Positions 2,339-5,365 of a stretch of 5,365 nt of DNA are shown piece by piece; the first letter of the stretch is position 1, and every line of letters begins with the position of its first letter. The notes below the pieces were generated by a model. The model was not told the origin of the DNA and did no database searches. It saw nothing but the letters and a program-made list of their open reading frames with translations. The translations under genes were made by a program, and so were the position numbers. Source of the stretch: a virus (lineage: Duplodnaviria > Heunggongvirae > Uroviricota > Caudoviricetes); IMG/VR virus record IMGVR_UViG_2529293078_000007. One strand, given 5' to 3'.

Positions 2339-2548
2339 TTATAAGGAAACACCAGCAGGGCCGCGGCGACCAACAGAACGATTAAAATCAATAATGCCAT
2401 TATAAAGGACATTATTTAATTTATCGTCGAATGCTGATTCTGTGAGCCTCAACTCTGAATGAGTTTTTAATAACCCTGATTGCCTGAGTTGATTTACCAG
2501 GCATTCAATCTGTTTTTCAATAAGCGGATTTCTTTTTTTGTTTGGCAT
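2339..2548 (-). CDS. Hypothetical small protein, 69 aa, convergent with the 212-aa gene
   Basis: ATG at 2548-2546 is preceded by GGAGGAT (plus 2553-2559). The track's start at 2560 is the ATG inside that SD. Stop abuts the stop of the + strand gene (TAATTA, 2336-2341). Uses rare codons (AGA, AGG, TTA); no homolog recognised. Confidence 0.35.
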   Translation of the reverse strand: MPNKKRNPLIEKQIECLVNQLRQSGLLKTHSELRLTESAFDDKLNNVLYNGIIDFNRSVGRRGPAGVSL

Positions 2549-2579
2549 TTTATCCTCCATTGAGGTTCTGGGTTAAAAA

Positions 2580-2885
2580 TGGAGACCAACACGCTGTCAC
2601 GTGTGGTCGTGCGCCGGACACGGATAAGAATCCGGTACTGACAGTTTACTGAAAGGATATTTCCCTGAAAAGTCAGTGCATAACGCGAAAGCGTACGGCG
2701 AAGCTCTTTCCCTTAGAAGGCTTGTCGTTAGATTTCTTCGAACGTGCGCTTCCGGTTGTGGCACTCCGCGAAATGGCGCGGCGGTAAGTATGGCGGGGTT
2801 ATTCCTTCCCCATTGAGGACACCGGGTTGTCAGGTTGACCATACGCTTAAGTGACAACCCCGCTGCAACGCCCTCTGTTATCAAT
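2580..2885 (+). other. GC-rich, hairpin-dense non-coding region upstream of DicF (possible dicF precursor or separate structured RNA)
   Basis: No + strand ORF longer than about 20 aa. Nested hairpin CTGTCA (2594-2599)/TGACAG (2639-2644) enclosing CCGGA (2614-2618)/TCCGG (2631-2635). GNRA hairpin ACGC-GAAA-GCGT (2683-2694). Perfect 9-bp stem GGGTTGTCA (2824-2832)/TGACAACCC (2852-2860). The 95-aa minus ORF here has non-protein-like composition. Confidence 0.3.
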
Positions 2886-2943
2886 TTTCTGGTGACGTTT
2901 GGCGGTATCAGTTTTACTCCGTGGCTGCTCTGCCGCCCTTTTT
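2886..2943 (+). ncRNA. dicF: DicF-like small regulatory RNA (ftsZ-targeting antisense sRNA), including its 3' terminator
   Basis: tttctggtgacgtttggcggtatcagttttactccgtggctgctctgccgccc followed by TTTTT matches E. coli DicF as recalled. It sits immediately upstream of the dicB-like gene as in Qin. Ends are approximate (a few nt either way). Confidence 0.7.
2901..2943 (+). terminator. Intrinsic terminator-like element (3' end of DicF)
   Basis: GGCGG (2901-2905) and CCGCC (2932-2936) flank an internally paired region, followed by a T5 run (2939-2943). Confidence 0.45.
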
Positions 2944-3112
2944 AAAGTGAATTTTGTGATGCGGTGAATGCGGCTAAGCGCACGCGGAACAGTTAAAACC
3001 AAAAACAGTGTTATGGGTGGATTCTCTGTATCCGGCGTTAATTGTTAACTGGTTAACGTCACCTGGAGGCACCAGGCACTGCATCACAAAATTCATTGTT
3101 GAGGACGCGATA

Positions 3113-3301
3113 ATGGAAACGTCATTACCAAACGTTAATACGTCTGAAGGTTGTTTTGATATTGGTGTTCTGCTCAGTAACCGGGAGTTTACTGAAGATG
3201 CCATTAACATGAGGAAATATGAGCCTTATCTGCTCAATGATAATTCCATACTTTCCCGAATTGCTCTTCTTGAACTTGGTATTTTCGGAGAACGTCAATG
3301 A
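3113..3301 (+). CDS. dicB: DicB-like cell-division inhibitor, 62 aa
   Basis: METSLPNVNTSEGCFDIGVLLSNREFTEDAINMRK... closely matches the remembered Qin DicB N-terminus (..LPNVNTSEGCFEIGV...FTEDAIN.RK), with the same 62-aa length. GAGGA lies 7 nt upstream of ATG 3113. The track ORF 3008..3301 is an in-frame upstream extension without an SD. Confidence 0.8.
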   Translation: METSLPNVNTSEGCFDIGVLLSNREFTEDAINMRKYEPYLLNDNSILSRIALLELGIFGERQ

Positions 3302-3578: not shown

Positions 3579-4823
3579 ATGAGCACTGATAAAGAAGAAT
3601 TTGCGCTATATTGCGAAGCAAAAAATGACAAAGTCAGAAAACGTCTGGGAATTAAAGGTGGTTTTTACTGGACTACAGCAAAAAAATTATCTGTTGCCAT
3701 CTCCCGCTGCATTACCGCAATGGATGACAACGATTATGATGAAGACGACTTTAAAAAACCCGTTCGCGTCCATTTACCCGTTGTGAATGACCTTCCACCT
3801 GAAGGCGTGTTTGATACCGAATTCTGCAACCGATACGAAAAAGGCGGGGAAGATGGCATTACAATGGTATTTATCGCGCCCTCTCCCTCCGTGCAGGAGA
3901 AACCAGCCAGTACTGACAATACCAACGTCAACGGCGAAGACATGACGGAGATTGAGGAGAATATGCTCCTGCCGGTTTCTGGTCAGGAGCTGCCCATTCG
4001 CTGGCTTGCGCAACACGGCAGCGAAAAACCAGTAACGCACGTTGCACGGGAAGAACTTCAGGCATTACATATAGCACGGGCGGAAGAACTGCCGGCTGTT
4101 ACTGCCCTGGCCATTTCTCACAAAACAAAGCTGCTCGACCCGCTGGAGATTCGCGACCTTCACAAACTGGTACGCGACACTGACAAAGTTTTCCCTAATC
4201 CCGGTAATTCAGACCTGGGACTGATAACTGCTTTTTTCGAGGCATACCTGGACGCTGACTACACTGATCGGGGTCTGCTGACAAAAGAGTGGATGAAAGG
4301 AAATCGTGTTTCGCGTATCACCCGTACGGCTTCCGGTGCAAATGCCGGTGGCGGGAACAAAACCGATCGCAATCCGAATTTAGTACACACCTTCGATACG
4401 CTGGATGTGGAGATTGCAGCAGCCACACTTCCGATGGATTTTAATATTTATGAAATTCCGGGCAGCGTTTATCGTCGCGCAAAAGAAATCGTCCTGAAAA
4501 GAGAAAGTCCGTTCAAAGAATGGTCCGCAGCACTTCGCGCAACCCCGGGTATTCTGGACTATTCCCGCGCCGCTATTTTTGCACTTATCCGGAGCGCTCA
4601 CCCTGAGTTTTATCACTACCCGGGACGCCTTCAGGGGTATATCAACGCCTACTTAACGGAGACTGATCACGAGAACCCCAGCAAGGAAACTCTCACTGCT
4701 GCACGACATACACCGGAAAAAGATATCCTGGAAGAAGTTAACCGCGAACTGTCTGCTAAGCAGGAAACAGAAGAAGAAAATGATGAAGAAAAACCGCAAC
4801 CATCTTGCGCAATGGCAGAATGA
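3579..4823 (+). CDS. Hypothetical prophage protein, 414 aa, acidic patches; occupies the position of Qin ydfE
   Basis: Long ORF with GAGGT 8 nt upstream of ATG 3579. Acidic stretches DDNDYDEDDF and C-terminal ETEEENDEEKPQ. No catalytic motif recognised. The ydfE assignment is positional only. Confidence 0.7.
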   Translation: MSTDKEEFALYCEAKNDKVRKRLGIKGGFYWTTAKKLSVAISRCITAMDDNDYDEDDFKKPVRVHLPVVNDLPPEGVFDTEFCNRYEKGGEDGITMVFIAPSPSVQEKPASTDNTNVNGEDMTEIEENMLLPVSGQELPIRWLAQHGSEKPVTHVAREELQALHIARAEELPAVTALAISHKTKLLDPLEIRDLHKLVRDTDKVFPNPGNSDLGLITAFFEAYLDADYTDRGLLTKEWMKGNRVSRITRTASGANAGGGNKTDRNPNLVHTFDTLDVEIAAATLPMDFNIYEIPGSVYRRAKEIVLKRESPFKEWSAALRATPGILDYSRAAIFALIRSAHPEFYHYPGRLQGYINAYLTETDHENPSKETLTAARHTPEKDILEEVNRELSAKQETEEENDEEKPQPSCAMAE

Positions 4824-5365
4824 TAATCAGAAGAAATCTGGCAAAAGACCGTTTTACAGTACCAAAAACACAGGCGGGAACCAATCGTGTGATTCACCTT
4901 ATTAAGCCCGCAATCGACGCTCTCCGGAGTCAGATGGCACTAACGAGACTGAGCAAAGAGCATATCATCGATGTTCACCTCAGAGAATTCGGCAGAACAG
5001 AGAAACAAAAATGTACCTTTGTTTTTCAACCTGAAGTGTCAGCGAAAGTAAAAAATTATGGCGACCATTTTACCGTTGACTCAATAAGGCAGATGTGGGA
5101 CGCAGCGGTAAAGCGTGCCGGAATCCGCCATCGCAAATCGTATCAGTCGAGACACACTTATGCCTGCTGGTCGTTAACAGCAGGAGCTAACCCGGCATTC
5201 ATTGCAAACCAGATGGGCCATGCAGATGCGCAAATGGTGTTTCAGGTGTACGGGAAATGGATGTCAGAAAATAATAATGCGCAGGTAATGAACCGCCCCG
5301 GGTTTCCTGGAGAGTGTTTTATCTGTGAACTCAGGCTGCCAGATCATCGTTTCCGATGGAAGCAT
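4820..5365 (+). pseudogene. Tyrosine recombinase/integrase, C-terminal catalytic-domain fragment (intQ-like, lacks the N-terminal half), continues past the window end
   Basis: Frame is open from the stop at 4784-4786 to the window end. First ATG 4820 overlaps the stop of the upstream gene (ATGA). Integrase catalytic motifs are present: beta-hairpin Lys region FTVPKTQAGTNRVIHL, Arg-His in SRHTYA (about 5150-5164), MGHAD, and the catalytic Tyr in QVYGKW (5249-5251). No Box I arginine region or N-terminal DNA-binding domains exist in any upstream frame. Confidence 0.55.

What the first reader, a model, noticed from the sequence alone, without database searches (positions are those of the whole stretch)
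2580..2885. About 300-nt GC-rich, hairpin-dense non-coding region immediately upstream of DicF
The region has no credible ORF on either strand, is more GC-rich than its flanks, and contains several perfect stems including a nested double hairpin, a GNRA tetraloop hairpin and a 9-bp stem with 19-nt loop. DicF is known to be cut out of a longer transcript by RNase III and RNase E, so this may be the processing scaffold. The density of structure also suggests a second stable RNA or a cis-regulatory element controlling dicF/dicB output.
Basis: partly seen in the sequence, partly recalled or inferred. Interest (0 to 1): 0.55.

Follow-up and report, generated by a model that had tools for sequence, protein, structure and literature searches.

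The report
Structured 5' body of DicF precursor
The GC-rich stretch upstream of DicF is a conserved, folded RNA leader: a long hairpin plus a 115-nt pseudoknotted four-way-junction domain not in Rfam, which forms the front part of the 190-nt DicF precursor, is shared with phage P1, and has no tested function.

Summary
The region is non-coding, GC-richer than its flanks and lies directly 5' of DicF (Rfam, 2887-2938). Folding energy alone is unremarkable. The evidence is comparative.

Two + strand RNA structures are supported by compensatory changes:
- A 21-23 bp hairpin, "helix L" (2679-2703 with 2736-2760).
- A 115-nt "core" (2755-2869): closing stem P1, three inner arms and a 6-bp pseudoknot.

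The core matches no Rfam 15 family. It occurs in most E. coli genomes, including K-12 Qin, and in P1/P7 about 27 nt after the C1-controlled ban promoter. It is always followed within about 10-45 nt by a variable seed and an intrinsic terminator.

Measuring 190 nt back from the DicF terminator lands 1-3 nt before P1, so the core is the 5' body of the published 190-nt pre-DicF.

The core is optional. Rac-type leaders (annotated sRNA KilS) and N-encoding phages keep only P1 as a mini-hairpin.

Its GNRA hairpin is one strand of helix L.

My best reading is a cis-acting processing and termination platform. An antiterminator or an autonomous RNA remain possible. It is a new RNA family of a known kind.

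The parts
2580..2607 (.). Left flank with hairpin GACCAACACG/CGUGUGGUC. Not part of the widely conserved leader. Next to a promoter-like site (2576-2547, minus strand) for the antisense 73-aa ORF 2339-2560.
   Evidence: K-12 and most homologues align only from 2608 on. Positions q1-62 and q12-70 match phiP27 and the phi191/P13374-type Stx phages separately. Promoter scan.
2608..2678 (+). 5' leader modules. Hairpin CCGGA 2614-2618 with UCCGG 2631-2635. Hairpin S2, CCCUGA 2663-2668 with UCAGUG 2673-2678.
   Evidence: S2 keeps pairing with different sequences in other leader classes: CCUG/CAGG, GCCCGG/CCGGGC, GCUGG/CCAGC, CCUGG/CCAGG (read by eye from the alignment). In some classes it is part of an apparent H-type pseudoknot with CACC/GUGG. 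Not formally counted.
2679..2703 (+). Helix L, 5' strand (CAUAACGCGAAAGCGUACGGCGAAG). The first 6 nt (X, 2679-2684) pair with Y (2755-2760).
   Evidence: RNAalifold finds 21 pairs. The helix is also in the MFE of the whole 306 nt. Three sequence families each keep a cognate duplex of -25 to -33 kcal/mol. 21 of 22 cross-family pairings give -14 to -23 kcal/mol; K-12 Qin 5' strand with Ayreon 3' strand gives -29.5. Shuffled control averages -14.2, sd 3.1.
2704..2735 (+). Variable cap of helix L (about 22-111 nt in homologues). Runs into the conserved AU-rich block GUCGUUAGAUUU (2726-2737).
   Evidence: Alignments. In K-12 Rac the same block reads TGTTAAATT, an extended -10-like motif, 7 nt before the 5' end of the annotated sRNA KilS. 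TSS data for KilS are cited in PMC8175672. A promoter role in this window is inferred only; the scan finds none.
2736..2760 (+). Helix L, 3' strand (CUUCGAACGUGCGCUUCCGGUUGUG). Its last 6 nt (Y) are also the 5' strand of core stem P1.
   Evidence: Sharing of Y makes X:Y and P1 mutually exclusive (read from the sequence).
2755..2869 (+). Core: a four-way junction with a pseudoknot. P1 2755-2761/2863-2869. P2 2766-2770/2777-2781. PJ 2782-2785/2821-2824. PK 2788-2793/2839-2844. P3 2794-2798/2808-2812. P4 2825-2832/2852-2859.
   Evidence: 96.5% of cells are paired, against 32-58% when partners are slid. Nine pairs change on both sides (1 of 500 shuffles reach this). Five of six helices show a double change (on the MAFFT alignment gives 95.8% and 8 pairs). 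P3 keeps pairing with at least 7 different stems. Single-sequence MFEs of the Ayreon, F1055, L030, L035 and L041 types recover P1-P4. U.G/G.U pairs in P1 indicate the + strand. Model R1 scores every copy 92-165 bits. No Rfam family matches.
2870..2886 (+). Single-stranded spacer GCCCUCUGUUAUCAAUU, ending at the DicF 5' end (RNase E-dependent according to the literature).
   Evidence: Rfam DicF starts at 2887. RNase E origin of the 5' end per PMC5069750 and PMC9438474.
2887..2943 (+). DicF sRNA with its intrinsic terminator and U-run.
   Evidence: RF00039, 75 bits. Terminator scan.
2947..3096 (+). dicB 5' UTR (STnc100-like, below Rfam threshold), closed by the 16-bp duplex 2947-2962 with 3081-3096. 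This is the likely RNase III site for the 72-nt DicF. It lies outside the finding.
   Evidence: RF02076, 34.5 bits against a threshold of 47. Complementarity read. The 72-nt length comes from PMC5069750.

Best explanation
The region is the structured, untranslated 5' part of the DicF precursor and dicB-operon leader, read on the + strand.

Shown:
- It contains a long hairpin (helix L) and a 115-nt four-way-junction plus pseudoknot domain (the core), both kept by compensatory changes.
- The core sits between helix L and the sRNA seed.
- The core is an exchangeable module. It is shared with P1/P7. In Rac-type leaders it is absent, and the same stem P1 closes as a 5-bp mini-hairpin.
- Wherever its 3' side is intact, the core is followed within about 10-45 nt by a variable seed and an intrinsic terminator.

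Inferred:
- The core is the 5' body of the published 190-nt pre-DicF.
- Stem P1 sets the structural boundary 16-17 nt upstream of the RNase E cut that releases the 53-nt DicF.
- In long operon transcripts helix L forms first. Its outer pairs (X:Y) compete with P1. Helix L is also a plausible RNase III substrate, and a cut in its 3' strand could create the 5' end of the 190-nt RNA.
- In short transcripts that start inside the helix L cap region, as TSS data suggest for the Rac homologue KilS, X is missing and P1 and the core fold by default.
- The folded core holds its G-rich strand (GGCGGUAAGUAUGG), which could otherwise pair with the terminator's 3' arm. Core folding would then favour termination and sRNA output over read-through into dicB.

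Overall I read it as a cis-acting folding, processing and termination platform for a family of prophage sRNAs. The role of the core interior is the least certain step.
For: - Conservation: homologues in 4421 of 5426 complete E. coli genomes, median 2 and up to 8 copies per genome. K-12 Qin carries it between ydfC and dicF.
- Core structure and covariation. Helix L.
- Linkage: in all roughly ten seed types with an intact 3' side, including P1, a seed and terminator follow the core.
- P1/P7: the core begins about 27 nt after the predicted Pban start and a strong terminator follows, giving an RNA of about 180 nt.
- Core-less leaders keep P1 as a hairpin in 29 of 126 loci seeded from the downstream motif. 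K-12 Rac KilS is a 98-nt, northern-verified, Hfq-associated RNA. It begins at the helix L 3' strand and includes the mini-P1 hairpin.
[quoted passage not shown] Counting back 190 nt from 2941-2943 gives 2752-2754.
- For the 192-nt RNA, the fold with core plus terminator (-62.0 kcal/mol, plus about -5.9 for the pseudoknot) is close in energy to one pairing the core's 5' half with the terminator's 3' arm (-69.7).
Against: - No experiment addresses the core.
- Core-less leaders (Rac KilS, N-encoding phages) make an sRNA of the same architecture. The interior is therefore not required for sRNA biogenesis, and a simple hairpin may suffice as a processing boundary.
- A processing boundary does not explain the invariant loops, the junctions or the pseudoknot.
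- The core-versus-terminator competition appears in the MFE only for the DicF type. The P1, P7, Ayreon, F1055, L035, L041 and L065 types fold the terminator in their MFEs. It has no covariation support.
- No RNase III cleavage is reported in helix L.
- Three variants (L018, L065, L258) lack the P1 5' strand.
- The covariation rests on few independent events: the P1/P7 clade versus the lambdoids, plus scattered variants.
- The A3 alignment was fitted to the structure being tested.
Confidence: 0.42

Rival explanations
1. The core is a factor-independent, cis-acting antiterminator RNA, working like HK022 put or the Bacillus EAR element. As nascent RNA it would bind the elongating RNA polymerase. 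This would let it read through the sRNA terminator and later terminators, so that dicB/kil, recE and int are expressed (in P1: the tRNAs and ban).
For: - Position: always in a repressor-controlled early operon, upstream of the first strong intrinsic terminator. In P1 it lies about 27 nt after the Pban start and before a 7-bp UUCG-capped terminator with a U-run. No promoter is annotated between that terminator and the tRNA genes.
- None of 77 core-containing loci has an N homologue. The 3 loci that do encode N are core-less or carry a truncated core.
- Conserved tertiary structure fits protein or polymerase recognition.
Against: - Not a put relative. The fold is a four-way junction with a pseudoknot, not two stems in a V. 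The covariance model finds nothing in the HK022 early region.
- 22 core-less loci also lack the N types tested, so there is no clean complementarity between the core and N.
- A processive antiterminator need not sit within 45 nt of a terminator in every lineage.
- DicF and KilS do accumulate as terminated RNAs.
Confidence: 0.2
2. The core is an autonomous functional RNA domain. It would be either a stable by-product of pre-DicF processing that acts in trans by binding a host or phage protein, or a ligand-sensing aptamer (riboswitch-like). The seed and terminator would simply share its transcription unit.
For: - The core is much better conserved than the seeds. P1 and the lambdoids share the core but have unrelated seeds.
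- Loops and junctions are near-invariant, and there is a pseudoknot.
- In P1 the layout promoter, core, 8 nt, terminator looks like a dedicated ncRNA gene.
- It behaves as an optional accessory module.
- Mutually exclusive pairings exist (X:Y versus P1), and a second register is possible for the P4 3' strand, with one compensatory case each (L264 versus L035/L294).
- An Hfq-enriched interval lies upstream of dicF.
Against: - No stable RNA of about 115 nt is reported.
- No expression platform overlapping the terminator is conserved.
- No ligand or protein candidate emerges from the gene context.
- The range is narrow: enterobacterial phages only.
Confidence: 0.2
3. The conservation reflects DNA-level signals or recent spread of one prophage module, and the inner folds have no function. 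Examples of such signals: an internal promoter for the sRNA, or recombination junctions between phage modules.
For: - Most lambdoid copies are over 90% identical, so much of the pairing is inherited.
- Homology breakpoints at q29, q100 and q176/187 show modular recombination.
- The AU-rich block resembles a -10 element and precedes the KilS 5' end.
- Folding energy is not exceptional.
Against: - Compensatory changes on both sides occur in five of six core helices, and three sequence families keep helix L.
- P3 pairs with at least 7 different stems.
- Wobble pairs fit only the + strand RNA.
- P1/P7 copies are 78-82% identical yet keep every helix.
Confidence: 0.08
4. The region encodes a small protein, for example the 95-aa minus-strand ORF 2597-2884. 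Some phage records annotate hypothetical proteins here.
For: A mechanical ORF exists. Several deposited phage annotations place hypothetical proteins over the match.
Against: - No Pfam family, and a TTG start.
- NCBI's pipeline calls nothing here in RefSeq genomes.
- Close relatives differ by 1-, 3- and 4-nt indels within it.
- The substitutions follow base pairing rather than codons.
Confidence: 0.02

Closest known systems
The 190-nt DicF precursor of the Qin dicB operon (Faubladier, Cam and Bouche 1990, as cited in PMC4152368, PMC5069750, PMC9438474)
   Same: Same locus and strand. The core plus spacer plus DicF equals the reported length. RNase E makes the DicF 5' end at the right edge of the region. 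[quoted passage not shown]
   Different: The papers I could read call it only a long untranslated region or the ydfC 3' UTR. None describes a fold, covariation, the P1 homologue or the modular core/seed/terminator family. I could not read the 1990 and 1994 papers.
KilS sRNA of the K-12 Rac prophage (kilR 5' UTR; PMC8175672)
   Same: Homologous leader: S2-type hairpin, helix L, Y, P1 stem, seed, GGCGG-type terminator, then an STnc100-like UTR and a cell-division inhibitor gene.
   Different: It has no core interior; P1 closes as GGUUGU-AAAUA-ACGAC. It also has a different seed.
The 'dicF-like region' annotated in the phage P1 genome (AF234173, 68472-68573)
   Same: It overlaps the P1 copy of the core's 3' half and the following terminator. 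The helices are kept with compensatory changes.
   Different: The annotation records similarity only. In P1 the element directly follows the C1-controlled Pban promoter and precedes the tRNA genes, not dicB. The seed and terminator are unrelated to DicF, and Rfam DicF does not hit there.
HK022 put RNAs (putL, putR)
   Same: Both are structured RNA elements in lambdoid early operons that lack N, downstream of a repressor-controlled promoter and upstream of terminators. A possible functional analogue.
   Different: put is about 70 nt, with two stem-loops in a V shape and a short triplex (PMC9378689). The core is 115 nt, with a four-way junction and a pseudoknot. The model finds no match in HK022. 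Antitermination is untested here.
RNase III processing hairpins of phage early transcripts (lambda N leader, T7 early sites; from general knowledge)
   Same: Helix L is an intercistronic hairpin of 21-23 bp with small bulges in an early operon already known to be processed by RNase III.
   Different: No cleavage has been mapped in helix L. The documented RNase III cut of this operon lies in the downstream duplex 2947-2962 with 3081-3096.
sRNAs cut from longer precursors by RNase E (ArcZ, MicL, CpxQ; PMC9438474)
   Same: A 3' terminator-proximal sRNA is released by RNase E next to a stem.
   Different: Here the discarded 5' part is more conserved than the seed, across seeds that are unrelated to each other.

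Membership tests
DicF RNA (Rfam RF00039) | Match to the 52-nt DicF covariance model | tested here: not met
   The only hit is 2887-2938. Nothing matches inside 2580-2885, even at E up to 1. The region lies upstream of DicF and is not part of the family model.
Any curated RNA family (Rfam 15, 4227 models) | A covariance-model match at or near the gathering score | tested here: not met
   No hit in 2580-2885 in the window, or at the core in nine homologous loci.
HK022 put-type antiterminator RNA | About 70 nt with two stem-loops in a V shape and a short triplex | tested here: not met
   The covariation-supported fold is a four-way junction with a pseudoknot. Features of put come from PMC9378689.
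HK022 put-type antiterminator RNA | Sequence and structure homology to putL or putR | tested here: not met
   Model R1 finds nothing in HK022 positions 21000-32000 at E up to 10.
HK022 put-type antiterminator RNA | Located downstream of an early promoter, ahead of terminators, in a phage without N | tested here: met
   In P1/P7 it lies about 27 nt after the Pban start. In lambdoids it lies in the early-left operon before the sRNA terminator. No N homologue is present in 77 core-containing loci.
HK022 put-type antiterminator RNA | Suppresses termination in cis by binding the RNA polymerase beta-prime zinc-binding domain | not testable with these tools
   Needs transcription assays.
Riboswitch | Conserved aptamer with covarying helices and invariant junctions | tested here: met
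Riboswitch | An expression platform whose pairing overlaps the aptamer | tested here: inconclusive
   X:Y versus P1 is mutually exclusive in all classes. A competition between the core and the terminator 3' arm appears only in the DicF type and lacks covariation.
Riboswitch | Specific ligand binding | not testable with these tools
   No ligand is suggested by the gene context.
RNase III processing site | A duplex of about 20 bp or more | tested here: met
   Helix L has 21-23 bp at -25 to -33 kcal/mol in six representatives.
RNase III processing site | rnc-dependent cleavage within the duplex | not testable with these tools
   Transcriptome-wide RNase III maps mention DicF only by citation. The operon is repressed in laboratory strains.
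tRNA or tRNA-like element | Recognised by tRNA models; a 3' NCCA after the closing stem | tested here: not met
   ARAGORN finds none, and there is no tRNA-clan hit. The cloverleaf-like topology with a 7-bp closing stem is only a resemblance. A CCA follows the stem in P1 phage only.
Lambda-type nut site (boxA plus boxB) | A boxA consensus followed by a 5-bp boxB hairpin with a GNRNA loop, matching the phage's own nut sites | tested here: not met
   The core-less mini-hairpin GUUGU-GAAUA-ACAAC has boxB-like geometry. The true nutL sites of the two N-encoding phages have different boxB sequences: GCGCUGACAAAGCGC and GGCUGCAAAGCC.
Protein-coding gene | A conserved reading frame or a family match | tested here: not met

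The most novel reading that the evidence does not exclude
The 115-nt core is a new class of phage regulatory RNA, shared by P1-like and lambdoid phages. It would fold as nascent RNA right after derepression of the early promoter. Either by itself (binding RNA polymerase) or with a ligand or protein, it would decide whether transcription stops at the next terminator or reads through. Stopping yields a division-inhibiting sRNA. Reading through reaches the division-inhibitor, recombination and, in P1, tRNA/ban genes. The X:Y versus P1 exchange would serve as its switch.
Probability: 0.22. Interest if true: 0.8.

Novelty: new member of a known kind. Interest (0 to 1): 0.5.

Why it matters
DicF is one of the oldest known sRNAs, sits in E. 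coli K-12 and affects EHEC virulence. Even so, the fold of the larger part of its 190-nt precursor is not described in any paper I could read. This analysis gives:
- a testable secondary-structure model;
- evidence that the same domain heads the P1 ban-operon leader;
- evidence that DicF, KilS and at least eight other seed variants form one modular family (leader hairpin, optional core, seed, terminator).

If the core controls termination or processing, it would explain how these N-less prophages balance sRNA output against expression of toxic division inhibitors. It would also add a new structured RNA class in a model organism.

Tried and rejected
- Known RNA families: Rfam at permissive thresholds gives nothing in the region. 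ARAGORN finds no tRNA or tmRNA.
- Stability as evidence: z-scores are weak, so I dropped it.
- put homology: rejected on fold and on the model search.
- "N replaces the core": N is found only in 3 core-less loci, but 22 core-less loci have no N of the types tested, so there is no clean complementarity. This test used tblastn with only two N queries, so its sensitivity is limited.
- nut-like reading of the mini-hairpin: it does not match the phages' own nutL sites.
- Alternative pairing GCGGGGUU with AACCCCGC: not conserved in P1, read.
- P3-loop to linker pseudoknot (UCCU/AGGA, replaced by CAUU/AAUG in one clade): suggestive but not general.
- Three-codon mini-ORF UUG-UCA-GGU-UGA: its Shine-Dalgarno sequence is absent in P1.
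- Similarity to the CRISPR I-E repeat: two shared 8-mers recalled from memory, not tested with any tool and judged chance.
- More distant homologues: the genome-contig scan used a 15-nt pattern that was too short. Of its hits, only Escherichia albertii was real. A gapped pattern in IMG/VR added only chance matches.
- Papers: the 1990 and 1994 DicF papers, the P1 genome paper and PMC5617263 are not held. PMC4152368 has no supplement held.

Full report
**Context.** The window is the early-left (dicB-type) operon of an E. coli O157-type lambdoid prophage. The gene order is:
- a Cro-like gene on the minus strand;
- an S24/HTH repressor (605-1243);
- a promoter-like site at 1328-1356;
- a DUF1391 (ydfA-like) gene and a 216-aa gene;
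- an antisense 73-aa ORF (2339-2560);
- the finding (2580-2885);
- DicF (2887-2938, RF00039, 75 bits);
- dicB (3113-3301) and a DUF1482/ydfD-like gene;
- a truncated recE and an integrase fragment.

**Checking the observation.**
- GC is 0.49-0.55 inside the region and 0.33-0.44 outside it.
- RefSeq annotates nothing there.
- A 95-aa minus-strand ORF spans the region. It has no family match, and 1-nt indels in close homologues break it.
- Folding energy is not exceptional. Z-scores are -1.49 and -1.84 for the two strands of the whole region, -0.46 for the core alone and -2.28 for 2600-2754.
- Hairpin density therefore proves nothing by itself. The case rests on comparison with homologues.

**Distribution.**
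- Homologues occur in 4421 of 5426 complete E. coli genomes, with a median of 2 and up to 8 copies each.
- In K-12 the homologue is the ydfC-dicF spacer of Qin, about 90% identical from window position 2608 onward.
- Homology classes begin at different points: q1, q29, q100 and q176/187. The region is therefore a mosaic.
- The rightmost block (about 2766-2862) also occurs at 78-82% identity in P1, P7 and about 500 P1-like plasmids. There it lies just downstream of the C1-controlled Pban promoter, in a stretch the P1 record calls a "dicF-like region".
- In Ayreon, the Stx2c phages, cdtI, Salmonella F1055 and a phage deposited as Actinobacillus pPE4, it lies downstream of the repressor gene in the early-left operon.

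**The core (2755-2869).** Seventy distinct sequences support six helices:

| Helix | 5' strand | 3' strand |
|---|---|---|
| P1 | 2755-2761 | 2863-2869 |
| P2 | 2766-2770 | 2777-2781 |
| PJ | 2782-2785 | 2821-2824 |
| P3 (hairpin) | 2794-2798 | 2808-2812 |
| P4 | 2825-2832 | 2852-2859 |
| PK (pseudoknot into the P4 loop) | 2788-2793 | 2839-2844 |

- On the MAFFT alignment, 95.8% of cells pair and 8 pairs change on both sides.
- On the model-based alignment, 96.5% pair, against 32-58% when partners are slid. Nine pairs change on both sides; 1 of 500 shuffles reaches this. Every helix except P2 has at least one such pair.
- Examples of compensatory change: PK U-A to C-G in P1; P4 U-A to C-G in P1/P7 and again in L035; PJ U-A to C-G in P7.
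- P3 pairs with at least seven different stems.
- In P1 the variable positions are always U.G or U-A, and G.U or G-C. This fits RNA from the + strand only.
- Single-sequence MFEs of the Ayreon, F1055, L030, L035 and L041 types recover P1-P4 without using the alignment.
- Model R1 scores all copies 92-165 bits. It finds nothing else, including in the HK022 early region.
- No Rfam family matches.
- Caveats: the sequences are closely related, independent events are few, and alignment A3 is fitted to the structure.

**Helix L.**
- RNAalifold on the upstream leader predicts 21 pairs between 2679-2703 and 2736-2760. The same helix appears in the MFE of the full 306 nt.
- Three sequence families keep the duplex with different sequences: Qin/window, Rac-type, and F1055/L041/Ayreon.
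- Cognate duplexes are -25 to -33 kcal/mol. 21 of 22 cross-family pairings give -14 to -23; K-12 Qin 5' strand with Ayreon 3' strand gives -29.5. A shuffled control averages -14.2 with sd 3.1.
- The outer six pairs, X (2679-2684) with Y (2755-2760), use the same nucleotides as the 5' strand of P1. The leader therefore has two mutually exclusive pairings.
- Helix L is long enough for RNase III, but no cleavage has been mapped there.

**What follows the core.**
- In every lineage with an intact 3' side, a 10-45 nt variable segment and a GC-rich intrinsic terminator follow the core. These are DicF or one of at least eight other seed types, including P1's.
- In lambdoids an STnc100-like 5' UTR and dicB or kil come next.
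- The published 72-nt, RNase III-derived DicF would end near 2957-2958. That is inside the duplex 2947-2962 with 3081-3096 and outside the finding.

**The core is optional.**
- I seeded loci from the downstream motif, independently of the core. Of 126 loci, 29 have no core.
- In most of these, P1 closes as GGUUGU-GAAUA-ACAAC or a similar mini-hairpin.
- One locus (L276) retains a 7-bp P1 with a short loop. POCJ13 has a 5'-truncated core.
- This core-less class is the sieB-kilR spacer of Rac. In K-12 it carries the annotated 98-nt sRNA KilS.
- KilS was verified by northern blot, was recovered in Hfq RIL-seq, and has TSS data suggesting its own promoter.
- Its 5' end falls at the start of the helix L 3' strand, 7 nt after an extended -10-like TGTTAAATT.

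**Link to published work.** One paper, citing Faubladier 1990, states that the 53-nt DicF derives from a full-length 190-nt RNA through RNase III and RNase E. [quoted passage not shown] Counting 190 nt back from the terminator U-run (2941-2943) gives 2752-2754, which is 1-3 nt before P1. The core is therefore the 5' body of that precursor. The P1 equivalent would be about 180 nt.

**How it may work.** The steps shown here are the conserved fold, the strand, the modular family, the linkage to a terminator and the optional nature of the core. The following steps are inferred:
- P1 marks the boundary for the RNase E cut 16-17 nt downstream.
- Helix L and X:Y dominate in operon-length transcripts and may be cut by RNase III.
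- Short transcripts lack X, so they fold the core.
- In the DicF type, the core's G-rich strand could otherwise pair with the terminator's 3' arm. The two global folds are near-isoenergetic: -69.7 kcal/mol against -62.0 plus about -5.9 for the pseudoknot. This last point is not general.

**Rivals.**
- A put/EAR-like antiterminator fits the position, especially in P1. It is not supported by homology, and its relation to N is not clean.
- An autonomous protein- or ligand-binding RNA fits the strong conservation of loops and the optional, exchangeable nature of the module.
- I cannot separate these readings computationally.

**Verdict.** The precursor RNA species is already known. Its fold, the P1 homology and the family architecture are not described in any paper I could read. 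The function of the core interior remains open.

Noticed in passing
window 2870-2943 and loci L006, L007, L011, L030, L035, L041, L065, L102, L005: DicF is one member of a family. At least nine different seed segments, each followed by a GGCGG/CCGCC-type terminator (a different terminator in P1), occupy the same slot after the core. This suggests a set of prophage sRNAs with different targets.
   Followed up: partly
L300 2906-3003 (K-12 Rac, minus strand) and loci L263-L299: The annotated sRNA KilS is the core-less homologue of pre-DicF. It shares the helix L 3' strand, a mini-P1 hairpin, a seed and a terminator. The papers I read do not mention this relationship.
   Followed up: partly
window 2936-3145: The dicB 5' UTR matches Rfam STnc100 below threshold (34.5 bits against 47). 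Its closing duplex 2947-2962 with 3081-3096 is where a 72-nt DicF would end, so it is probably the known RNase III site. P1 has an STnc100-like stretch upstream of tciA (L005 2842-2961).
   Followed up: partly
window 2339-2576, minus strand: A 73-aa ORF with its own promoter-like site (TTAACC-18-TAAAAT) sits antisense inside the early-left operon. It has no Pfam family, and RefSeq annotates it as hypothetical.
   Followed up: no
L004 3045-3650 (E. coli EC2641): A SIR2-family gene on the opposite strand replaces everything after the core's P4, removing the P1 3' strand and the sRNA. This may be a defence-gene insertion hotspot.
   Followed up: no
L258 (phage deposited as Actinobacillus vB_Apl-pPE4): The seed and terminator module is tandemly duplicated after the core, and the P1 and P2 5' strands are replaced. 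The gene content looks like an E. coli Rac/Qin-type phage (DicA, YdaT, Kil, RecE).
   Followed up: no
window 2607-2616 and 2743-2754: A direct repeat, CGUGCGCCGG and CGUGCGCUUCCGG, brackets the upstream leader. GUGCGC is nearly self-complementary and pairs in the MFE of 2600-2754.
   Followed up: no
window 2833-2837 with 2855-2859: A second register is possible for the P4 3' strand (GGUUG with CAACC, predicted by RNAalifold). L264 has a C/G compensatory pair in this register, while L035/L294 compensate in the P4 register. This hints at two conformers.
   Followed up: partly
window 2680-2702 versus 2761-2784; locus L018: GCAUAACGCGAAAGCGUACGGCG resembles GCACUCCGCGAAAUGGCGCGGCGG. Variant L018 looks like a deletion between these repeats that removes the P1 5' strand.
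   Followed up: no
window 3579-5365: The recE-like gene is truncated and the integrase is a frameshifted fragment (RefSeq flags), so this prophage copy is defective.
   Followed up: no
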